Below are positions 5,113-14,106 of a stretch of DNA of 20,000 nucleotides, in pieces. The notes under the pieces are model-generated. The model worked only from the letters and a program-made list of their open reading frames with translations. It was not told the origin of the DNA and did no database searches. This stretch comes from an uncultured virus (IMG/VR IMGVR_UViG_3300032073_000002). Taxonomy: Duplodnaviria > Heunggongvirae > Uroviricota > Caudoviricetes. A program made the position numbers and the translations under genes. The stretch lies in the IMG/VR virus record IMGVR_UViG_3300032073_000002; one strand, written 5' to 3'. The stretch's first letter is position 1, and each line of letters starts with the position of its first letter.

Positions 5113-5559
5113 GCATATTCGGGTAAGTTCAAACCAAAGAACTACAAAAAATACAAAGGAGACCCCACTAAAATCTATTATAGGTCTTTATGGGAGCGTA
5201 GATTTATGGTTTACTGTGATGAAAACACCAATATCTTAGAATGGGGTAGTGAAGAAATCATTATACCCTACATTTCACCCCTAGACAAGAGACCACATAG
5301 ATACTTTCCCGACTTTTACATAAAATATAAGAATGCATCGGGTCAAATACTCCGTGAAATCATTGAAGTCAAGCCTAAGAAACAAACTAAACCCCCAAAA
5401 CAACCAAAACGTAAGACACAACGTTACTACAAAGAGGTTGCAACCTATGTTATCAACGAAGCAAAGTTTAAAGCTGCAGAAAGTTTCTGCAAAGATAGAA
5501 AATTGGGATTCCGTATACTAACTGAAGACCATTTACTCCCAAAAAAGGTAAAGAAATGA
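5110..5559 (+). CDS. gp4: Head completion nuclease gp4 (TnsA-N-like PD-(D/E)xK fold)
   Basis: 'MAYSGKFKPKNYKKYKGDPTKIYYRSLWERRFMVYCD..NILEWGSEE..IPY.SPLD..HRYFPDF...IEVKP' is the classic T4 gp4 signature. Confidence 0.95.
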   Translation: MAYSGKFKPKNYKKYKGDPTKIYYRSLWERRFMVYCDENTNILEWGSEEIIIPYISPLDKRPHRYFPDFYIKYKNASGQILREIIEVKPKKQTKPPKQPKRKTQRYYKEVATYVINEAKFKAAESFCKDRKLGFRILTEDHLLPKKVKK

Positions 5560-6137
5560 AAAAATTATATGTGTTTGATTTAGATGGAGTCTTAATTGAT
5601 TCCAAAAAGAACATGGAAACAGCATTCAACTCCTTAGAGACTGGTATGCCATTTGAAGATTACTTCAAACATATTGGTAAACCATTCAAAGACATCTTAA
5701 CTGAGATGGGTATACTTACTGACCAAGATGAGTTGATGAAAATGTACAACAAAGCATCTGAAGAAAATGGAGACATGATAAAATTCTACAAGGGTGTAGA
5801 AAAACACCTTCAACATTTACAAGCTGAAGGTAAAAAATTAGCCGTGGTAACTTCGAAGTCACATCACCGAGCTCATGCTATTCTGCTTGAACTTGATGTT
5901 GAATTTGAAATTATATGCTGTCCGAATGAACGGTTTAGAGGGAAACCATCTCCCGACCAATTACTATATACACTTGCAGAATGTAATGTAGACCCAAAAG
6001 ATGCAGTCTATGTGGGTGACATGCAAGTAGATATGGATTGTGCAGACAGAGCTGGTGTTGATTTTATTTACGCAGAATATGGATATGGAGATATAGAATG
6101 TTGTTGGAACAGAGCAAGTTCAATCGAGTCGGTTTAA
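5556..6137 (+). CDS. HAD-superfamily phosphatase (phosphoglycolate phosphatase/PPase-like, C1 cap)
   Basis: Motif I 'VFDLDGVLIDS', motif II 'VVTSK', motifs III/IV 'KPSPD...YVGDMQVD'; ATGA overlap with gp4. Confidence 0.9.
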   Translation: MKKLYVFDLDGVLIDSKKNMETAFNSLETGMPFEDYFKHIGKPFKDILTEMGILTDQDELMKMYNKASEENGDMIKFYKGVEKHLQHLQAEGKKLAVVTSKSHHRAHAILLELDVEFEIICCPNERFRGKPSPDQLLYTLAECNVDPKDAVYVGDMQVDMDCADRAGVDFIYAEYGYGDIECCWNRASSIESV

Positions 6138-6838
6138 TACCTGCCCGATATGGTTCATCTAGATTTGAGGGTAAACCCCTTGCATTAATCTGTGGTGAAT
6201 CTATGATTAAGAGAACCTATGACCGTGCATCGGCTTCGAAGAAACTAGACAAGGTCTACGTGGTTACGGATGATAATAGAATTGAATACCATTGTGAGAT
6301 ATTCAACATACCTGTAATAAGAGTTGACGATGATTGTGAGACTGGAACAGATAGGTGTGCAATTGCATCCGAACAAATAGATGCAGATATCTATGTTAAC
6401 ATCCAAGGTGACGAACCTTTGATTGACCCCGAAGCAATTGATAGACTATGTGATTATTTTAATCCTAATCTTGGTGTTGCAAATGCATACGTTACAGTCG
6501 AAGAACCTTACAAGGTCATGGACAACGATGTAGTAAAGGTTGTGTTTGATTCACATCATTGTGCAATGTATTACTCACGTCTTGGTATACCTTTCCCACG
6601 AGGTGAGGATGCAAGGGTACATCAACAACTTGGTTTATATGCATTCACTAAAGAACGTCTACAAGAGTTCTCTAAGTTGCCTATGCAAACTTTAGAGTTT
6701 GCAGAACGAATAGAAATGTTGAGATTCTTAGAACATGGATATAAAGTTCTAATGGTTCATGTAGAAGATGATGGTCTATCAGTAGACACACCTAAAGATA
6801 TCAAACTAGTAGAGGATAGAATAAATGCATATAACTGA
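6098..6838 (+). CDS. kdsB: 3-deoxy-manno-octulosonate cytidylyltransferase (CMP-Kdo synthetase, KdsB/KpsU family)
   Basis: 'IPARYGSSRFEGKPL', 'TGTDR', 'VNIQGDEPLI', 'VKVV', 'YYSR..IPF', 'LE.AERIEMLRFLEHG' and 'SVDTPKD'; GGAGA SD upstream. Confidence 0.92.
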   Translation: MLLEQSKFNRVGLIPARYGSSRFEGKPLALICGESMIKRTYDRASASKKLDKVYVVTDDNRIEYHCEIFNIPVIRVDDDCETGTDRCAIASEQIDADIYVNIQGDEPLIDPEAIDRLCDYFNPNLGVANAYVTVEEPYKVMDNDVVKVVFDSHHCAMYYSRLGIPFPRGEDARVHQQLGLYAFTKERLQEFSKLPMQTLEFAERIEMLRFLEHGYKVLMVHVEDDGLSVDTPKDIKLVEDRINAYN

Positions 6839-7541
6839 AGACCGCCTACGAGAAGCCTTTGAAAATAAATCTAAGGTATCAATACCAAAGATAGCGACTC
6901 TAGCCGAATGTAAACATTGGCATCCATATCACCCTAAGACATATGGAAAGAACTTATTAAAGTATATTCATCACATCAATGTTGCAGAGAATAAGACCGA
7001 CGATGATTCACTGAGAAACGAAGCACAGAAACTAGTTTGGTTAATAGACCAATACAAAACAGTAGGGTTTTATTCTACACCACAAGCATGGATTAAACCA
7101 AACGATAGATGGAGAGTTCACCCAGGCTCTGTTCGTGTAAATGCTCTGATACAATGTAAAGCTTATGAAACAAAATTTGTTGTTTGGGATGACTCTAATT
7201 ACTTACCTAACAATAAACAAATCACTTACGATGATTGGATAAATGAATTTCCAATCCCCGAAGGTAGAAATGCAGTGTTCTTTGATGTTGAAGGTATGAT
7301 TGAGTTTCATATATCTGAAGACCGTCCCGAAATGTATGAGTACTACTATAGACTTAGAGAATTATATGAGGGTAAGAAACCTAGACTCATAGGAACCTGT
7401 GATGAAAGTATAAAACATCTATTCGGAAATGGTAGAGTTACCGTTACTGGTCATATCACTGAAGAAGACCTCGGGTCATTCCTAGAAATAAATCCATCTA
7501 ATCGAGAAGTTATAGAAACTAATTTTAGTATTGTAGCCTAA
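6825..7541 (+). CDS. Hypothetical protein, possible ParB/Sulfiredoxin-like N-terminal domain
   Basis: 'KLVWLIDQYKTVGFYSTP....WRVHPGSVRVNAL' loosely follows the ParB-N pattern (L..SI...G...P....Y.iidGxxR..A); overlaps the kdsB stop; AGAGGA SD upstream. Confidence 0.5.
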   Translation: MHITEDRLREAFENKSKVSIPKIATLAECKHWHPYHPKTYGKNLLKYIHHINVAENKTDDDSLRNEAQKLVWLIDQYKTVGFYSTPQAWIKPNDRWRVHPGSVRVNALIQCKAYETKFVVWDDSNYLPNNKQITYDDWINEFPIPEGRNAVFFDVEGMIEFHISEDRPEMYEYYYRLRELYEGKKPRLIGTCDESIKHLFGNGRVTVTGHITEEDLGSFLEINPSNREVIETNFSIVA

Positions 7542-7558: not shown

Positions 7559-8146
7559 ATGGTATCAAGAGTCTTATTGTCAGCAGTAGCAAAAATGTTA
7601 CCCGAAGATGTAGAGTCGGGAACTGAAGATAGTCTTGAATGGTTTAGAAATAACGTAAGAGATATTAAACTAAGACCCGATAGAGTAATGGGTGGACTGA
7701 GTTCGGTTACATCTAGTGGTTTGAAACAAGGTAAAGTATACATGTTTCACTACGATGCTAAATGGCAAGATGAATTACCTTACTGGGATAAGTACCCAAT
7801 AGTGATACCAATAGAACAATATAAAGATGGGTTCTTAGGTATTAATACACATTACATTGCACCTAGACATAGAACTGCATTACTCAGACCCTTATTAGAA
7901 GAGCTAAGAGGCAATACAATAGAGGGTGATGGAGATACTAGAATGGAAGTTGATTACAACATCATTCAGTACAATAATGATTTAAGGTTTGCAAAACCTT
8001 GTATCAAAAGATATTTAACAACACACATAGGTGCAAGAATAGTGGAAGTACCTTATCAACAATGGGAAGCAATATTGATGTTACCACTTGCAAAATTTAA
8101 CGTCAACGCAAATACTGTGTATGCAGAGAGTCAAAGGAAATTCTAA
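7559..8146 (+). CDS. gp2: DNA end protector protein gp2
   Basis: 'SLEWFR', 'GKVYMFHYDAKWQDELPYWDKYPIVIP...GFLGIN.HY', 'KPCIKRYL' and 'W...LMLP...F' are typical of T4 gp2. Confidence 0.9.
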   Translation: MVSRVLLSAVAKMLPEDVESGTEDSLEWFRNNVRDIKLRPDRVMGGLSSVTSSGLKQGKVYMFHYDAKWQDELPYWDKYPIVIPIEQYKDGFLGINTHYIAPRHRTALLRPLLEELRGNTIEGDGDTRMEVDYNIIQYNNDLRFAKPCIKRYLTTHIGARIVEVPYQQWEAILMLPLAKFNVNANTVYAESQRKF

Positions 8147-8955
8147 TGAGTATAACAATAGATACGTTTAAAGCAAATTTTGATGTAGGTGCAAGAGGAG
8201 ACCTTTATGATGTTGCTATTCTAGCTCCTGCTGGATTAGGATTTCAGTTTTCTGCAGAAGACATGCTTAGATGTAGAAGTGTAGATATGGAAGGTTCATC
8301 TTTAGGAACTAATACAAGAGACCAATACAATTCGGGATATGAAATCCCCGACGGAACTGTAGACCAAGGTGGGTTTGTTGACTTAACCTTTATATGTGAC
8401 CAATCATTTCATGACCGTGCATTAATTGAAGCATGGCATCGATGGATTTACGAAGCATCATACACAGGTGGTGCTGGTGGAACTCAAGGTTCTGCACAAA
8501 TACCAGTCATGAAATATCTTGATGATTACATCGGACAACTTGAAGTGTATGCACTGAGAAAGGACGAAACTAAGTCTTTAAAATATACTTACCATGATGT
8601 ATATCCATCATCATTCGATACTCAAAGTTTTGGTGCAGACTCAAGTGGTATACTAGAAATTAGTATGTCATTCCAATACAGACATTACGATACAGAATAC
8701 ATGGTAGAAGATAGGAAGCCAAATAGAAATTACACTGAGATATATGATGATATGGTATCAAGACAACCAAAACTTCCCGAAGCTTCTGCACTAAATACTG
8801 GAAGAAAGATTTTAGATTCTACTTTAGACGTATTAAAAGTCGGAAGTAGATTTAACGATAAAGTTGGTGGTTACCTTAATAAGTTATCATCACTTGACAC
8901 CGCTGCCACTAAGTACAAAAACCTAGGAATAGGAAAGTTACTAGGTGGTGGTTAA
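8146..8955 (+). CDS. gp54: Baseplate tail tube initiator gp54 (gp19-like tube fold)
   Basis: 'LTFICD', 'IEAWHRWIY', 'YLDDYIG', 'YTYHDVYPSS' and 'ISMSFQYRHY' resemble the tube fold; position between gp2 and gp26. Confidence 0.72.
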   Translation: MSITIDTFKANFDVGARGDLYDVAILAPAGLGFQFSAEDMLRCRSVDMEGSSLGTNTRDQYNSGYEIPDGTVDQGGFVDLTFICDQSFHDRALIEAWHRWIYEASYTGGAGGTQGSAQIPVMKYLDDYIGQLEVYALRKDETKSLKYTYHDVYPSSFDTQSFGADSSGILEISMSFQYRHYDTEYMVEDRKPNRNYTEIYDDMVSRQPKLPEASALNTGRKILDSTLDVLKVGSRFNDKVGGYLNKLSSLDTAATKYKNLGIGKLLGGG

Positions 8956-8974: not shown

Positions 8975-9679
8975 ATGGCCTTACCAATTCAGGCAACCCC
9001 CACATACACATGTGAACTGCCCTCAACTGGTACTGAAGTAAAATTCAGACCGTTCCTAGTAAAGGAACAAAAGATTCTTGTCATTGCACAAGAAAGTGAA
9101 GACCCGAAAACTACACTTAGTGCAGTTAAGGATTTGATTAATAATGTGACGTTTGAGAAAGTCAATGCAAATGAATTGACTATGTTTGACCTAGAGTACT
9201 TGTTCTGTAAAATCAGAGCAGTATCAGTAGGTGAAACAATTCCATTAAAGTTGGCTTGCATGGCAACTGACTGTAATGGAACTGGTGAAACAGTAGTTAA
9301 CTTAGATGACCTAACAGTAACAGAAGATACTGGTGGTGACCCTAAGATAATGATATCAGATGACGTTGGTATTATATTAAGATATCCAAAGGTTAAAGAT
9401 ATGGAACAAATTACTACTGCTTCTGAAGACCAACAATCGATAGAAGTTCTTAAGGCATCAATCACACAAATTTTTGATGCAGAGAATGTCTACGATGAGG
9501 CTGATATGTCAGCTGACGATAAATCAGAGTTTGTAGAAAGTTTAACCTTTCCACAGATTGAGAAGTTGAGTGCATTCTTTAACGGTATGCCCAAACTTCA
9601 AGGTAAGATTGAATACAAGTGTAACACTTGTGGTAAGTTGAATGAGAGATTATTGGAAGGACTACAAAGTTTTTTTTAA
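8975..9679 (+). CDS. gp26: Baseplate hub assembly protein gp26
   Basis: 'MALP....PTY..ELPSTG..VKFRPFLVKEQKIL', 'FDLEYLF.KIRA.SVGE', 'RYP', two Cys pairs and terminal 'LEGLQSFF'; GGAG SD. Confidence 0.92.
   Translation: MALPIQATPTYTCELPSTGTEVKFRPFLVKEQKILVIAQESEDPKTTLSAVKDLINNVTFEKVNANELTMFDLEYLFCKIRAVSVGETIPLKLACMATDCNGTGETVVNLDDLTVTEDTGGDPKIMISDDVGIILRYPKVKDMEQITTASEDQQSIEVLKASITQIFDAENVYDEADMSADDKSEFVESLTFPQIEKLSAFFNGMPKLQGKIEYKCNTCGKLNERLLEGLQSFF
9670..9677 (+). other. Candidate -1 programmed ribosomal frameshift site (T8; T TTT TTT)
   Basis: gp26 ends AGT TTT TTT TAA. The -1 frame reads TTT TTT TTA ATA ACC and stays open to 9873, encoding the gp51-like peptide. Confidence 0.6.
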
Positions 9680-9873
9680 TAACCCTTTCTCATGAGTCGG
9701 TGTTTAATTTTTATAGCACCAACTTTCAACTAATGCAACACCACAAATACTCGTTAGACGAATTAGATTCAATGATACCTTGGGAAAGGGAAATCTATAT
9801 TAAATTGCTCATGCAACATCTAGAAGAAGAAAAAGAACGTCAGAAGGCAGAACAAGCCAAAATGAGAAGATAA
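9679..9873 (+). CDS. gp51: Baseplate hub assembly catalyst, gp51-like short frame (not in the ORF track; start uncertain, possibly expressed by frameshift from gp26)
   Basis: Manual translation: ITLSHESVFNFYSTNFQLMQHHKYSLDELDSMIPWEREIYIKLLMQHLEEEKERQKAEQAKMRR*. 'NF.LMQHHKYSL.E...M.PWER.IY..LL' is the motif of short gp51-annotated proteins of cyanophage-type T4-likes. Confidence 0.85.
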   Translation: MTLSHESVFNFYSTNFQLMQHHKYSLDELDSMIPWEREIYIKLLMQHLEEEKERQKAEQAKMRR

Positions 9874-9901: not shown

Positions 9902-10282
9902 ATGAGCGATATGGATAAATTTCAAGGCGACATGAGTCGTAACGAAGTAGAAATTGACTTGAAAAAGTTTATGAGTATGGTTTCTGAAATCGGTGATTTG
10001 AAACAGGAAATCTTTGAACTAACTCAAGAAGATAGAAAGAACCCTTGGCAGAAATGGATATTTGCAGCCAAGACAATTGATGCATGGAGAATTATACCTC
10101 GTGCATTCCTAGGTATTTATATGTACCTATTATATTATGCGACCTTTTGGTTTATGGACTTGGCAGACCCAACCCTTGAACAGTCGGGATTAATTTCCGT
10201 ACTAGTGGGTGCTGGAGCTGCATGGTTTGGTCTATACACTTCAAGTGCAGCGAAAGAACACGGTGACCAAAACCCCAATTAG
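9902..10282 (+). CDS. Small membrane protein with two predicted TM helices (holin-like)
   Basis: Hydrophobic segments 'IIPRAFLGIYMYLLYYATFWFM' and 'GLISVLVGAGAAWFGLY' follow an N-terminal coiled-coil-like region; AGAGGA SD. Confidence 0.6.
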   Translation: MSDMDKFQGDMSRNEVEIDLKKFMSMVSEIGDLKQEIFELTQEDRKNPWQKWIFAAKTIDAWRIIPRAFLGIYMYLLYYATFWFMDLADPTLEQSGLISVLVGAGAAWFGLYTSSAAKEHGDQNPN

Positions 10283-10293
10283 GAAAATCATAA

Positions 10294-12546
10294 ATGGCTG
10301 AGACCAACGCAGATATAAAGAATTTTACAGAAGGTTTAATTGGAAGCTTGAACAGGGTAACAACTGGTCTTGCTTTCAAGCAGTCTGCTGAAATAATTAA
10401 AGCAAACGAAAGAATGAAAGAGTCTCAAGAAAGACTCGCTCGTAGGCAAGAAACACATCAAGAAAAGGTCGAAGCACAACAAGAAAAATTCGATAAGTCT
10501 CGTGAGAAGATTATGCAAAAACACGCAAATAATCAAACTCAACGAGACATAGAATTATACAAACTAGACAATAGAAGAAATGATGCAACTAAAGAATTGG
10601 TTGACGATTTTGATAAGTTTAAAAAATCATTAAGTGAAGGTAACGACTTAGAGAAAGACCACATCGAAAACCTTAAATCTCAAGGTAGTATGAATACTGG
10701 TATAGACGGAATGTCTTCTGGCATTGATGATATGGTTAAAGGTATTGAAGGTTTGACATTTGGTCTAGTAGACTTAAGTGGTAGTTCTAATAAACTAACT
10801 AATTTCTTTAAAGGGATTGTTAGTTTAGGTGTTGGTTTAATAAGTTTCTTAGGAAGTCTAGGTGAGACTGTTGTACTATTAACAGACCACTTAAAAGTCT
10901 TTGATAGAAAAATAAAAATTACTAGAACAGGGGGAGCGCCAGGTACAGTACCTAGTGGTATCACTGGCATGGGTGAAGATTTTGTTGGCCCTGTTAACCC
11001 CAATGCAGCTACATCATCAGAAGATATTATTGAATCATCGGTTGTTGATTTTGCAACCCCATTAGGTAAGAAAGCAGGCAGTTTCTTTAAAGGCATCAAA
11101 GATGGAATCGGTGGTGTCCTTGATACAGTAAGTCCACAAAACATCAAAAAGCAATTTGATGTTGCAACCAAGACATTTGCTAAAGGAGCAAGCATTGTTG
11201 CAAATGTAACACCTACTGAAAGTGAAGAACGAAGACCTCTCCAAGAAACATTGCCGGGCATGGAGAAATCACCCCAAGATAAATCAGCTGAGTTCCTATC
11301 TACATACAAAAGTGATTCTGTTCCAATAGAAGCAGCTGGTGCAATATCTGATATGTTAAATGGAATTAAAAATTCTCTTAGAAGTTCATTTTCGTTTGGT
11401 GATACAGACAAACAAGCAGAAGCTGGTGAGATGATGGAAGAAAATTTCTCACAGATGAAAGGTCATGCTGAAAACTTTAGAGGCTTAGTGTTTGGTGAAG
11501 GTTCTATGTTTGCTAAAATTACTGGTGGATTTGGAGATGCATTAAATTTCTATGGTGAGAGTGTTAATAAGGTAGGCAATACGGTTATTGGATTTGGGAA
11601 ATCAGTTGGCCAGTTCTTCAGTAGTGGAGAAAATATGAAAGCTGGGGTGGCGTCTTTCGCTGCATCTTCATGGTCATTTCTTAAATCTGCATTAAAGTTT
11701 GTTCCTGCTGTATTAGGATTCGTTGTTGCAACCACTATGTTTGTGGGTTCAATGATTGTTGCATCCTTACCATTCATTGCAATGGGATTATTAATTGCAG
11801 TTGGAGTTGCTTTACTCGTTGGAGCTGTAGTTGCAGTATTTAATAAGTTCCCTATCATAGGTGAGACTTTATCTACAGTATTTGGTTTTGTATTTGATAC
11901 CATTAGTGGTATAGTCAATGTTATTATGGATGTCTTCAGCAATATATGGGGAGCCATAACAGACATCTTCGGTGGATTCATCGATATGTTTAGCGCTGCA
12001 TTCAGTGGTGATTTTGGTGGTATTTTTGATGGTCTAATGAAGATAATAGGTGGAGTCTTTGATTTATTCTTAGCACCATTTAGAGCAATCTTCGATGGTA
12101 TAGCAGGATTTGTTAATTCACTATTACCCGATTGGGCAAAAGACATGTTAGGGGGTGATACTGCTTCTGCAGAAGAGAGTGGTCTCTACGATAAAAACAG
12201 AATAGGTAAATCTACTGTAGATGCATCTATGATATCTGGCGCTCCAACTAAAGACTTAATGGCCATTGTTTCACACAATGATTTATCTGAAGAAGACATG
12301 GCACTAGTTAAGGCAGAACTTGATTCAAGGAATATAGGTCTTGAAGGTACTCCTATGACTGGTGAAGAATTAAAAGAACAAAGAGAAGCATCTAAAGCTG
12401 CAATGGATGGTGGAACACAAAACAACACTGCAGTTGCACAACAAAACACTAATAACAATGTAACTAATAATGCATTCTCACAATCACCTAATCCTAGACC
12501 AACTGATTCTACAATTGGAAGAACTGCAGCTGTAAATCTAAATTAA
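10294..12546 (+). CDS. Tail length tape measure protein (gp29-like)
   Basis: 750 aa with an N-terminal coiled coil, Gly/Ala/Phe-rich amphipathic repeats ('FGGFIDMFSAAFSGDFGGIFDGLMKIIGGVFDLF'), a hydrophobic TM stretch and an Asn/Thr-rich C-terminus; lies downstream of gp26/gp51. Confidence 0.75.
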   Translation: MAETNADIKNFTEGLIGSLNRVTTGLAFKQSAEIIKANERMKESQERLARRQETHQEKVEAQQEKFDKSREKIMQKHANNQTQRDIELYKLDNRRNDATKELVDDFDKFKKSLSEGNDLEKDHIENLKSQGSMNTGIDGMSSGIDDMVKGIEGLTFGLVDLSGSSNKLTNFFKGIVSLGVGLISFLGSLGETVVLLTDHLKVFDRKIKITRTGGAPGTVPSGITGMGEDFVGPVNPNAATSSEDIIESSVVDFATPLGKKAGSFFKGIKDGIGGVLDTVSPQNIKKQFDVATKTFAKGASIVANVTPTESEERRPLQETLPGMEKSPQDKSAEFLSTYKSDSVPIEAAGAISDMLNGIKNSLRSSFSFGDTDKQAEAGEMMEENFSQMKGHAENFRGLVFGEGSMFAKITGGFGDALNFYGESVNKVGNTVIGFGKSVGQFFSSGENMKAGVASFAASSWSFLKSALKFVPAVLGFVVATTMFVGSMIVASLPFIAMGLLIAVGVALLVGAVVAVFNKFPIIGETLSTVFGFVFDTISGIVNVIMDVFSNIWGAITDIFGGFIDMFSAAFSGDFGGIFDGLMKIIGGVFDLFLAPFRAIFDGIAGFVNSLLPDWAKDMLGGDTASAEESGLYDKNRIGKSTVDASMISGAPTKDLMAIVSHNDLSEEDMALVKAELDSRNIGLEGTPMTGEELKEQREASKAAMDGGTQNNTAVAQQNTNNNVTNNAFSQSPNPRPTDSTIGRTAAVNLN

Positions 12547-12763: not shown

Positions 12764-13009
12764 TCAACCTAACGGCCCTCTAAATCCACGTCGTCCCATT
12801 GATGCTCTTTTTGCATCTAACTTCTTACGTCTCTTCAAGTCTTGGTTTCTTTGATTCCTAATTGTATTAGGTTTGATGTGATACTTTCTATCACGACATT
12901 CTTGAACTATACCTGCTTTCTCACAATCCTTTTTGAATCTGCGAAGTAGTTGGTCGAACCCTTCTACGTTCCGATTCTTTGGATTTATTTTAGGTGTTAC
13001 ACTAGGCAT
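12764..13009 (-). CDS. rpsU: Phage-encoded 30S ribosomal protein bS21
   Basis: '[32 protein letters not shown]' aligns with bacterial S21 'E.FD.ALRRFKRSCEKAG.L.E.R.RE.YEKP'; basic C-terminal helix. Confidence 0.92.
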
Positions 13010-13206: not shown

Positions 13207-14106
13207 CTAACTATCAGCAGCCAGTTTCTTAAAGTAGTCCATCGCATCATCTTCTTCCACTTGGGGAGCAGATTCTGCTGATGCAACTACAGGTTCTTCT
13301 GCAACTGGAGACGTGTTAACATCTGACCATGGAAGTTCTTCCATATCATCTGCAACTGACTCAGCTGTAGAGTTAGTTACTGCACCTGTTAATCCAAGAA
13401 CTCTATCGAGTTTCTCTTTTAACTCTTCGTAAGATTTAAACTCACTTGGTGCAATAATTCCACTTAAGCTATGTAGGTTGTTTACCACATCTACAAGCTT
13501 TTGCTCATCATCAAATAAAGGTGCTTGTGAATCGAACTCTGATTTATCATAGTTCCAGTATCCGTCAACTTTTCTGATTTTAATCTTGAAGTTGGCACCT
13601 TCGTCTCTGAGGTCAAAAGGATTGATTGCTTTCTCATCTTCAAATGCTGGTGAGATTGCTTCCTTGAGTGCTTCAAAGATTTTTTTACCATATCTGTACT
13701 TAAACACTTTACCTTCGTTAGCAGGATTTTTAGGGTCTGAGATAACAAGGATGTTAGACACATAATGTAAACGTCTTTTCTGTTTACGTGCTTGGTCTTT
13801 GTTTGCCTCAACACCAGTATTCCATAACTGAGTATTGTATTCAGACACAGGGTCTTGTTTATTAAGAGTCGTTAAAGACTTCTCAATATACCATCCACCT
13901 GGCCCTTGGAAACCGTGGTCGAAGTATGATACCCATGGCATCTCTTCACCCTCGGGGGTAGGTAAGAAACGAACTACAGCGTAACCGTTACCACTCTTAT
14001 CGAGTTCGGGTTTCCACATAGTGTCGTCTGAGTAGGATTTTTTTTCTCCGCCTGTTGGGGAAGCTGATTCCATTGCAGCTCTTAGTTTATCTAAACTACT
14101 TGACAT
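13207..14106 (-). CDS. gp32: Single-stranded DNA-binding protein gp32
   Basis: 'WKPELDKSGNGYAVVRFLP', 'HGFQGPGGWYIEKSLTTL..DPVSE.N..LWN', 'GKKIF', 'GANFKIKIRKVDGYWNYDKSEF' and acidic tail 'DDAMDYFKKLA'; AGGAGA SD. Confidence 0.97.
   Translation of the reverse strand: MSSSLDKLRAAMESASPTGGEKKSYSDDTMWKPELDKSGNGYAVVRFLPTPEGEEMPWVSYFDHGFQGPGGWYIEKSLTTLNKQDPVSEYNTQLWNTGVEANKDQARKQKRRLHYVSNILVISDPKNPANEGKVFKYRYGKKIFEALKEAISPAFEDEKAINPFDLRDEGANFKIKIRKVDGYWNYDKSEFDSQAPLFDDEQKLVDVVNNLHSLSGIIAPSEFKSYEELKEKLDRVLGLTGAVTNSTAESVADDMEELPWSDVNTSPVAEEPVVASAESAPQVEEDDAMDYFKKLAADS

What the first reader, a model, noticed from the sequence alone, without database searches (positions are those of the whole stretch)
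8975..9873. Probable programmed -1 frameshift fusing gp26 to a start-less gp51-like frame (lambda G/GT-type chaperone logic in a T4-like phage)
Seen: gp26 ends ...CAA AGT TTT TTT TAA with eight Ts (9670-9677), a perfect X XXY YYZ heptamer. The -1 frame opens onto LITLSHESVFNFYSTNFQLMQHHKYSLDELDSMIPWEREIYIKLL...RR* (stop 9873). This frame has no ATG before the internal MQHH; the only alternative is GTG 9700 with a poor SD. Established: many long-tailed phages make two tail assembly chaperones (lambda gpG/gpGT) by a -1 frameshift upstream of the tape measure gene. Inference: the short 'gp51' here may be the C-terminal extension of a ~299-aa gp26-gp51 transframe protein, made at a fixed ratio to gp26. 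A tape measure gene follows one gene later. I do not know this to be described for T4-like phages.
Basis: partly seen in the sequence, partly recalled or inferred. Interest (0 to 1): 0.8.

Follow-up and report, generated by a model that had tools for sequence, protein, structure and literature searches.

The report
Frameshift joins phage gp26 to gp51
One tail-assembly gene of this uncultured marine T4-like phage very probably makes a short and a long protein because some ribosomes slip back one base on a run of T's, which is how it gets from one gene what phage T4 gets from its separate genes 26 and 51; the site is real, but the trick is already in print for this phage group.

Summary
gp26 (8975-9679, Pfam T4_baseplate) ends AGT TTT TTT TAA. 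The T8 run at 9670-9677 gives an in-register T_TTT_TTT heptamer. The -1 frame is open from 9646 to 9873 and encodes the gp51 C-terminal module. In 89 of 92 related loci (25 of 28 clusters at 60% identity) gp26 ends with an in-register T_TTT_TTN 0-6 nt before its stop. The gp51-like frame is always -1, and it shows codon-periodic conservation from the slip site, upstream of any conserved start. T4 gp51 (249 aa) is a gp26-like domain plus this extension. T4 has two family copies and a non-slippery TTC TTT; four slippery-site genomes have one copy. T8 is not an assembly error: eight further contigs and three RNA-library contigs carry it. The gp26 N-domain model best matches tail assembly chaperone folds (HK97 gp13, Z 7.0).

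This is not new. Vladimirov, Gautam and Davidson (Virology 2022), which I saw only through two citing passages, identified gp26/gp51 as the T4-like chaperones with poly-T slip sites. This scan has also reported the same thing on at least eight other genomes. Ribosomal versus transcriptional slippage on T8 remains open. Database records still annotate the two parts separately.

The parts
8975..9679 (+). gp26 / short tail-hub assembly chaperone (TAC-N), 234 aa, zero frame, stop TAA 9677-9679
   Evidence: ORF. PF12322 T4_baseplate E 3e-57. phrog_150 E 2.5e-62. The AF2 model has pLDDT 83; its residues 1-87/95 best match TAC folds 3fgx_B Z 7.5, HK97 2ob9_B Z 7.0 and YqbN 3klu_A Z 6.7.
9655..9661 (+). 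SD-like GGAAGGA, 8 nt upstream of the heptamer; candidate upstream stimulator (inferred)
   Evidence: Sequence. In 23 of 25 cluster representatives there is a match of 4 nt or more to the SD consensus at -18..-6. The Glu codon there is GAG in 12 of 16 representatives against 4.3 expected from each locus's own usage; Poisson-binomial P 2.9e-5 assuming independent clusters.
9670..9676 (+). Slippery heptamer T TTT TTT (part of the T8 run 9670-9677), in X XXY YYZ register
   Evidence: The same in-register T_TTT_TTN occurs in 89 of 92 loci. Codon-usage product over 25 clusters is 10^-11.7.
9676..9873 (+). -1 frame extension (65 codons after the slip plus stop TAA 9871-9873): the gp51 C-terminal module
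   Evidence: phrog_634 'baseplate hub assembly catalyst' E 1.6e-28, and phrog_150 profile positions 229-280 of 282. Aligns to T4 gp51 residues 200-249, E 8e-8. Mean column identity is 69% over 29 relatives.
8975..9873 (+). Predicted transframe product gp26-gp51 (TAC-NC), 299 aa, the counterpart of full-length T4 gp51
   Evidence: Inference. T4 gp51 residues 1-201 match PF12322 (E 3.9e-52), and residues 200-249 match the window's -1 frame.
9694..9725 (+). Tentative RNA hairpin (4 + 6 bp, 10-nt loop) 17 nt downstream of the heptamer
   Evidence: Fold: -11.2 kcal/mol, z -2.39, for 9677-9760. In 11 T8-clade sequences 84.5% of cells pair against 43-52% for slid controls, with 3 pairs showing double changes. 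RNAalifold itself predicted no consensus structure. The spacer is longer than usual for a frameshift stimulator.
10294..12546 (+). Tape measure protein (gp29 analogue), 750 aa; the presumed client of the chaperone (context)
   Evidence: phrog_58 and eight other tape-measure PHROGs, best E 1e-8. Binding is inferred by analogy and was not tested.

Best explanation
gp26 and the start-less 'gp51' are one recoded gene for the two forms of the tail/hub assembly chaperone. Most ribosomes terminate at TAA 9677-9679 and make the 234-aa short form. A minority slip back one base on T TTT TTT (9670-9676). This can happen as a tandem P/A-site slip, or as a P-site slip while the stop codon waits in the A site; both give the same protein. 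These ribosomes continue in the -1 frame to 9873 and make a 299-aa long form, the counterpart of full-length T4 gp51. By analogy with lambda G/GT, the shared N-part would coat the tape measure protein and the 65-residue extension would dock it to the nascent hub/tube. A fixed slip rate would set the ratio of the two forms. Shown here: the sequence anatomy, its conservation, the homology to T4 gp26/gp51 and the chaperone-like fold. Inferred: that the slip happens, that it is ribosomal, its rate, and the binding partners.
For: Anatomy.

Family: PF12322 and phrog_150 for the zero frame; phrog_634 and the C-terminal 52 positions of phrog_150 for the -1 frame.

T4 gp51 equals a gp26-like domain (PF12322, residues 1-201, E 3.9e-52) plus the extension (window -1 frame aligns to gp51 200-249, E 8e-8).

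Copy number: T4 has 2 PF12322 matches. Four complete genomes with the slippery arrangement have 1 each. T4 gp26 ends GAG TTC TTT ..., which is not slippery.

Conservation: 89 of 92 loci and 25 of 28 clusters at 60% identity have an in-register T_TTT_TTN 0-6 nt before the stop. This includes phages where TTT is only 16-24% of Phe codons. The product of codon-usage probabilities is 10^-11.7.

Frame: -1 in 81 of 81 detected.

Coding signal: -1 frame entropy by codon position is 0.87/0.58/1.37 for residues 3-21 after the slip. Ser is kept through a TCG/AGT/AGC switch.

Start codons before residue 21 are not conserved and mostly lack an SD. Aeromonas phages have none before residue 34.

T8 is found in 8 further IMG/VR contigs at 87-100% identity and in RNA-library contigs of 3 studies that bridge the run without gaps.

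TAC-like fold of residues 1-87.

Sullivan 2010 (PMC3037559, passages) noted that cyanophage gp51 lacks the first ~200 residues. This model explains that.
Against: There are no protein data; everything is comparative.

T7 runs are not rare in this AT-rich window (9 found, 15.9 expected).

The window lacks the hairpin that sits 5-6 nt after the heptamer in other clades. Its own hairpin starts 17 nt downstream, and RNAalifold predicted no consensus structure.

Three of 28 clusters (Pseudomonas Cygsa01, Vibrio K444, Vibrio Kuja) have no heptamer. Two of these have an ATG overlapping the gp26 stop, so the extension can apparently be made as a separate peptide in some lineages.

Three further lineages have both a heptamer and an overlapping ATG.

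Contigs cannot exclude a minority of U9 transcripts.

Clusters are related, so the probabilities overstate independence.

The title of Vladimirov et al. [quoted passage not shown]
Confidence: 0.78

Rival explanations
1. Transcriptional slippage. RNA polymerase stutters on the T8 template run and adds one U to a fraction of transcripts. On these, normal translation reads straight from gp26 into the extension. The long protein would be identical to the frameshift product.
For: T8 is longer than the heptamer requires. All 27 loci of the T7-heptamer class carry exactly T8. The window has no proximal hairpin. An earlier scan note reports a relative with a U9 run and a different frame relation (unchecked). 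The 2022 paper's title mentions a non-translational mechanism, but one citing passage reads this as separate genes.
Against: Sixty-two of 92 loci have only T6, too short for efficient polymerase slippage by what is known of E. coli RNAP (recalled), yet they keep the same -1 relation. The run is always in the X XXY YYZ register, with a conserved upstream SD-like GAGGG/GAAGG. Those are ribosomal features. The eighth T is simply the T of the stop codon. RNA-library contigs from 3 studies show the run without insertion, though contigs drop rare variants.
Confidence: 0.12
2. Independent translation. The gp51-like frame is a separate small gene, started at GTG 9700 (57 aa) or ATG 9733 (46 aa), for instance by reinitiation after termination at 9679. 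No fusion protein is made.
For: All 12 annotated database records examined treat the two frames as separate. Ten give the small ORF its own CDS and two give it none. Two heptamer-less lineages have an ATG overlapping the stop. A free extension may work in those.
Against: In the window there is no SD before GTG 9700 or ATG 9733. Residues 3-20 of the -1 frame, upstream of the common Met, are conserved with third-position variation and align to T4 gp51 from residue 200. The Met at 9733 is Val in P-HM1 and T4. Start positions differ between clusters. This model does not explain the conserved heptamer.
Confidence: 0.07
3. Artefact or decay. A homopolymer miscall (true T9 or T6) splits one continuous ORF, or the gene is a pseudogene.
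For: Homopolymers are error-prone. The window comes from a metagenome-derived record that is 22% complete.
Against: T8 is identical in 8 other IMG/VR contigs. Fourteen DNA runs hold all sampled words. Three RNA-library contigs bridge the run with 0 gaps. The same -1 relation holds in isolates with T6 heptamers from cyanobacterial, Vibrio, Aeromonas, Stenotrophomonas, Rhizobium and Agrobacterium phages.
Confidence: 0.01

Closest known systems
T4-like tail assembly chaperone genes gp26/gp51 as described by Vladimirov, Gautam and Davidson, Virology 2022;566:9-15 (seen only in citing passages: PMC10885494; PMC12846349)
   Same: The same gene family and the same claim. gp26 is the short chaperone and gp51 the long one. 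Poly-T slippery sequences lie at the end of the short gene in T4-like phages, and some phages (T4) carry a short gene plus a fused long gene instead.
   Different: Nothing in kind. This is an uncultured marine relative (at most 44% identity to any isolate's gp26). Its heptamer abuts the stop codon (T8), and it lacks the proximal hairpin seen in sister clades. I could not check whether the paper covers these details.
Phage T4 gp26 (208 aa) and gp51 (249 aa), hub assembly chaperones (Leiman et al. 2010, PMC3004832, passages and Table 2)
   Same: Both match PF12322 and phrog_150. T4 gp51 carries the C-terminal module that the window encodes in the -1 frame. gp51 is required for assembly but absent from the particle.
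   Different: T4 uses two divergently transcribed paralogous genes, and a non-slippery TTC TTT at the homologous Phe-Phe. The window has one gene and a slip site.
Lambda gpG/gpGT, HK97 gp13, P2 E/E+E': the conserved -1 frameshift of tail assembly chaperone genes (Xu, Hendrix, Duda 2004; recalled, seen here only in reference lists)
   Same: A short and a long form made from overlapping frames upstream of the tape measure gene. An X XXY YYZ heptamer near the end of the short ORF. The N-domain fold resembles HK97 gp13 and YqbN.
   Different: No detectable sequence similarity (the PDB profile search found nothing). gp26 is about twice as long as gpG, with extra domains and Cys pairs. One small ORF (9902-10282) lies between it and the tape measure gene. 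The system builds a T4-type hub.
E. coli dnaX -1 frameshift (A AAA AAG with an upstream SD-like element and a downstream hairpin; recalled)
   Same: A homopolymeric heptamer with an SD-like element about 9-10 nt upstream.
   Different: A U-run rather than an A-run. The stop codon follows immediately. There is no hairpin at 5-9 nt in the window.

Membership tests
T4 gp26/gp51 hub assembly chaperone family (PF12322 T4_baseplate; phrog_150, phrog_634) | Significant match of the main ORF to the family profile | tested here: met
   PF12322 E 3e-57, 194 bits against a cut-off of 24.5. phrog_150 E 2.5e-62.
T4 gp26/gp51 hub assembly chaperone family (PF12322 T4_baseplate; phrog_150, phrog_634) | gp51-type C-terminal module | tested here: met
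   -1 frame: phrog_634 E 1.6e-28. BLASTP to T4 gp51 residues 200-249, E 8e-8.
T4 gp26/gp51 hub assembly chaperone family (PF12322 T4_baseplate; phrog_150, phrog_634) | Location in a T4-type baseplate/hub module | tested here: met
   Homologues of gp5, gp53, gp48, gp4, gp2, a tube-like protein, the tape measure, gp32 and gp59 are in the window.
G/GT-type programmed -1 frameshift of tail assembly chaperones | X XXY YYZ heptamer in zero-frame register near the end of the short ORF, with the -1 frame open from there | tested here: met
   T TTT TTT at 9670-9676. The -1 frame is open from 9646 to 9873.
G/GT-type programmed -1 frameshift of tail assembly chaperones | Heptamer and frame relation conserved in diverged relatives | tested here: met
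   89 of 92 loci and 25 of 28 clusters. -1 frame in 81 of 81 detected. Codon-usage product 10^-11.7.
G/GT-type programmed -1 frameshift of tail assembly chaperones | Position between the tail tube gene and the tape measure gene | tested here: met
   The tube-like ORF 8146-8955 (phrog_45) lies upstream and the tape measure 10294-12546 downstream, with one extra 126-aa ORF between.
G/GT-type programmed -1 frameshift of tail assembly chaperones | Tail assembly chaperone fold of the shared N-part | tested here: inconclusive
   The top three of 48,161 chains are TAC-type (3fgx_B Z 7.5, rmsd 4.1, 85 aligned; HK97 2ob9_B Z 7.0, rmsd 3.4, 81 aligned; YqbN 3klu_A Z 6.7). The next hit has Z 4.8. Z below 8 is within the tool's common range. 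Foldseek against PDB found nothing.
G/GT-type programmed -1 frameshift of tail assembly chaperones | Two proteins made at a fixed ratio; the long form essential | not testable with these tools
   Needs protein analysis of infected cells or a reporter.
G/GT-type programmed -1 frameshift of tail assembly chaperones | Short part binds the tape measure; extension binds the tube/hub | not testable with these tools
   Inferred by analogy only.
dnaX-type stimulated -1 frameshift | SD-like element about 10 nt upstream of the heptamer | tested here: met
   GGAAGGA at 9655-9661. 23 of 25 representatives have a match of 4 nt or more. GAG 12 of 16 against 4.3 expected.
dnaX-type stimulated -1 frameshift | Stable hairpin 5-9 nt downstream | tested here: not met
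   The window pairs only 3 bp at the position of the hairpin that other clades have. Its own hairpin starts 17 nt downstream.

The most novel reading that the evidence does not exclude
Within the known gp26/gp51 recoding family, this clade (27 of 92 loci) may use a different stimulatory architecture. The slippery run has moved up against the stop codon (T TTT TTT TAA, T8) and the proximal hairpin of sister clades is lost. The pause would then come from the waiting stop codon plus an upstream SD-like GGAAGGA. Alternatively, part of the long form would come from polymerase stuttering on T8. That would be a natural series in which one recoding site switches between hairpin-driven, stop-codon-driven and transcriptional modes.
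Probability: 0.3. Interest if true: 0.4.

Novelty: new member of a known kind. Interest (0 to 1): 0.28.

Why it matters
It settles what the 'tiny gp51' of marine T4-like phages is. Sullivan et al. 2010 noted it as lacking the first ~200 residues of T4 gp51. It is the C-terminal extension of a gp26-gp51 long chaperone, not a free-standing gene.

It shows that T4-type phages follow the near-universal two-form chaperone rule of long-tailed phages. T4 itself is the derived exception, with two genes.

In practice, none of the 12 database records I examined annotates the joined product, and two miss the extension altogether. Annotation pipelines could therefore add a rule: PF12322 gene, in-register T_TTT_TTN within 6 nt of the stop, phrog_634 in the -1 frame.

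Because the kind is already published and this scan has met it repeatedly, the scientific surprise is small.

Tried and rejected
1. Complex prediction of the 67-residue extension (alignment A5) with the upstream tube-like protein 8146-8955 (alignment A4): no answer, score 0.00. This is neither for nor against binding.

2. Foldseek of the gp26 model against PDB: no match at E 0.001 or better. A profile search of PDB sequences gave only a chance-level hit.

3. RNAalifold on 11 T8-clade and 21 other sequences: no consensus structure. Named hairpins were then counted by hand-given structures. Because they were derived from these sequences, the counts lean towards them.

4. Reads: only Logan contigs were on offer, no raw reads. 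U9 minority transcripts could not be looked for. Run X20 does not bridge the run by 31 nt.

5. A second PF12322 copy in the window's own record: none found, but the record is 41.9 kb and 22% complete, so absence is not shown.

6. The 2022 Virology paper is not held. Searches for open papers that join gp26, gp51 and frameshift or chaperone found none on T4-like phages besides those citing it.

7. The AF2 model of the extension alone (pLDDT 78.8, four helices) was not searched further, because short helical models give unspecific matches.

8. L029 was dropped from all counts because gp26 runs off the locus.

Full report
**1. What is there**

The window is part of a T4-like myophage. It encodes homologues of gp5, gp53, gp48, gp4 (head completion), gp2 (DNA end protector), a tube-like protein, gp26, a tape measure protein, gp32 and gp59. 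The window lies in a 41.9-kb virus record estimated 22% complete. The nearest isolates are Synechococcus phages, at no more than 44% identity for gp26.

The ORF 8975..9679 (234 aa) matches Pfam PF12322 T4_baseplate (E 3e-57) and phrog_150. It ends CAA AGT TTT TTT TAA. The eight T's are at 9670-9677. The heptamer T TTT TTT (9670-9676) is in the X XXY YYZ register, and the stop follows at once.

The -1 frame has its last stop at 9643-9645 and is then open to 9871-9873. From 9646 its product matches phrog_634 'baseplate hub assembly catalyst' (gp51; E 1.6e-28). It also matches the last 52 positions of the gp26 family profile phrog_150 (E 9e-9). The only start codons in that frame before ATG 9733 is GTG 9700, without an SD.

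**2. Is it more than chance?**

A T7 run alone is not. The window has 9 matches against 15.9 expected from shuffles. The comparative evidence is what counts.

I collected 80 IMG/VR loci with a gp26 relative. One of them, L029, was dropped because the gene runs off the locus. I added 12 annotated phage records chosen from 657 tblastn hits to span cyanobacterial, Vibrio, Aeromonas, Stenotrophomonas, Pseudomonas, Rhizobium and Agrobacterium phages. With the window this makes 92 loci.

- In 89 of 92, gp26 ends with an in-register T_TTT_TTN heptamer 0, 3 or 6 nt before its stop: TTTTTTT 27, TTTTTTA 35, TTTTTTC 26, TTTTTTG 1.
- By single linkage at 60% identity the loci form 28 clusters, and 25 of them have the heptamer.
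- I took each cluster's amino-acid sequence as given and used its own codon usage. The chance of a T-ending codon followed by TTT is 0.09-0.69 per cluster and 10^-11.7 for all 25 together. This overstates independence, because the clusters are related.
- The site is kept even where TTT is a minority Phe codon: 16% in Stenotrophomonas YB07, 22% in Vibrio K491 and Agrobacterium OLIVR6, 24% in Rhizobium RHph_I34.

**3. The -1 frame is read from the slip site**

tblastn with the window's -1 peptide found a relative in 81 of 84 loci searched. All 81 were in the -1 frame, and nearly all alignments started at the Phe-Phe of the heptamer. The three misses are one divergent locus, where the frame is visible by eye, and two loci that end early.

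In 81 of the 89 heptamer loci the -1 frame runs 58-68 codons to a stop. In the other 8 the locus ends first.

Over residues 3-21 after the slip, nucleotide entropy across 20 cluster representatives is 0.87, 0.58 and 1.37 for codon positions 1, 2 and 3 of the -1 frame. That is a coding signature in a stretch that lies after the zero-frame stop.

The residue after Phe-Phe is Arg in most clades, encoded either CGN or AGR, and Leu in the window's clade. A conserved Ser switches between TCG and AGT/AGC.

Start codons in this stretch are not conserved in position, and few have any SD. Several clusters have none before residue 21, and the Aeromonas phages have none before residue 34. The Met at 9733 is Val in P-HM1 and in T4.

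The extension is the most conserved piece of the locus. Mean column identity is 69%, against 54% for gp26 and 38% for the upstream tube-like protein.

**4. Relation to T4**

T4 gp26 (208 aa) and gp51 (249 aa) both match PF12322 over their first ~200 residues (E 8.8e-64 and 3.9e-52). They also match each other (E 2e-6). gp51 covers the whole 282-position phrog_150 profile, whereas gp26 stops at position 235. The window's -1 frame aligns to gp51 residues 200-249, starting at the slip-site Phe (E 8e-8).

So T4 gp51 corresponds to the predicted transframe product, and T4 gp26 to the short form. T4 has two PF12322 matches. Four complete genomes with the slippery arrangement (Sf-FP1, P-HM1, YB07, K491) have one each. 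At the homologous Phe-Phe, T4 gp26 uses TTC TTT, which breaks the run.

This also explains the remark of Sullivan et al. 2010 that cyanophage and marine vibriophage gp51 lack the first ~200 residues (PMC3037559, passages).

**5. Not an artefact**

The same T8 is found in eight other IMG/VR contigs at 87-100% protein identity. Fourteen DNA runs hold all sampled words of the stretch. Contigs of three RNA libraries from three studies (X15, X16, X19) bridge the run with no gap. X20 does not bridge it. These are contigs. They show the main form only, and they cannot show whether a minority of transcripts carries an extra U.

**6. Fold**

An AlphaFold2 model of gp26 from a 31-sequence alignment has mean pLDDT 83. 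Against 48,161 PDB representatives, the three best matches all fall on residues 1-87/95:
- 3fgx_B: Z 7.5, rmsd 4.1, 85 aligned.
- HK97 tail assembly chaperone 2ob9_B: Z 7.0, rmsd 3.4, 81 aligned.
- YqbN 3klu_A: Z 6.7.

The next match has Z 4.8. These Z values lie in the range the tool calls common, and Foldseek found nothing in PDB. I therefore rate the fold as consistent with a chaperone, not proven. BFVD returns the gp26 family across myophages.

**7. How it probably works**

The heptamer allows a tandem -1 slip of two tRNA-Phe. Because TAA follows directly, it also allows a P-site slip while the stop codon waits. Both give the same protein.

An SD-like element lies upstream: GGAAGGA at 9655-9661, 8 nt before the heptamer. 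The two G's are invariant in 20 representatives. In 23 of 25 there is an SD match of 4 nt or more. The Glu codon there is GAG in 12 of 16 against 4.3 expected (P 2.9e-5 if the clusters are independent). This resembles the dnaX arrangement, which I recall from memory.

About half of the non-T8 marine sequences have a hairpin 5-6 nt after the heptamer, with compensatory changes: 76% of cells paired against 33-43% for slid controls. The window does not have it. The window has a hairpin at 9694-9725 that the T8 clade keeps (84.5% against 43-52%), but it lies 17 nt downstream. I regard its role as open.

**8. Rivals**

- Transcriptional slippage on T8 would give the same protein and cannot be excluded here. 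It fits poorly with the T6 sites of 62 of 92 loci and with the register and SD features.
- Independent initiation at GTG 9700 or ATG 9733 is contradicted by the conservation upstream of these codons.
- Three clusters lack the heptamer (Pseudomonas Cygsa01, Vibrio K444, Vibrio Kuja). Two of them, and three heptamer-bearing lineages, have an ATG overlapping the gp26 stop. A free extension may therefore exist in some phages.

**9. What is known**

Leiman et al. 2010 list gp26 and gp51 as hub assembly chaperones, with gp51 absent from the particle (PMC3004832, passages).

[quoted passage not shown] I could not read the paper. One citing paper says that some T4-like phages carry a short gene and a fused long gene instead of frameshifting (PMC10885494, passage). 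Another says that poly-T sequences are known -1 signals in the TAC-N genes of T4-like phages (PMC12846349, passage).

My searches of the open library found no other paper on this point. Earlier notes of this scan report the same site on at least eight other genomes.

Database annotation lags behind. None of the 12 records joins the two frames. Ten give the small ORF its own, often truncated, CDS, and two omit it.

**10. Verdict**

It is a further member of a published kind, so its interest is modest. What remains open is the mechanism in the T8/stop-codon clade (ribosome or polymerase, and which stimulator) and the partners of the highly conserved extension.

Noticed in passing
window 12764-13009 (-): An 81-aa ORF matches ribosomal protein S21 (PF01165, E 7.8e-13). 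This is a phage-encoded bS21 beside the tape measure gene, as reported for some marine phages (recalled).
   Followed up: partly
window 5556-6838 (+): A HAD-family hydrolase (PF13419, E 1.6e-33) and a CMP-sugar type cytidylyltransferase (PF02348, E 4.4e-43) sit inside the structural module, between gp4 and gp2. A 238-aa ORF of no known family follows (6825-7541). These are possible sugar-nucleotide auxiliary genes.
   Followed up: no
window 9902-10282 (+): A 126-aa ORF with hydrophobic segments (phrog_10198, unknown function) lies between the chaperone gene and the tape measure gene, where T4 has genes 27 and 28.
   Followed up: no
L088 (Pseudomonas phage Cygsa01), L090 (Vibrio phage K444), L093 (Vibrio phage Kuja): Three gp26 lineages have no T_TTT_TTN heptamer (endings ATT TTC, CTT TTT, CTT TTT). 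The first two have an ATG overlapping the gp26 stop. In Kuja, conservation in the -1 frame still starts upstream of the annotated ATG. They may use reinitiation or another slip site.
   Followed up: partly
L089 (Aeromonas phage avDM6), L091 (Aeromonas phage CC2): The gp51-like extension is not annotated at all in these records, although the heptamer and a 58-59-codon open -1 frame are present. That frame has no start codon before residue 34.
   Followed up: partly
A5 (extension) against A1 (gp26) and A4 (tube-like protein): The 65-residue extension is more conserved (69% mean column identity) than the chaperone body (54%) or the neighbouring tube-like protein (38%). This suggests a tightly constrained partner.
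   Followed up: partly
window 14038-14045 (+ strand T8; A8 in the mRNA of the minus-strand gp32 gene 13207-14106): A second 8-nt homopolymer lies inside the gp32 gene. I did not check whether any alternative frame is open there.
   Followed up: no
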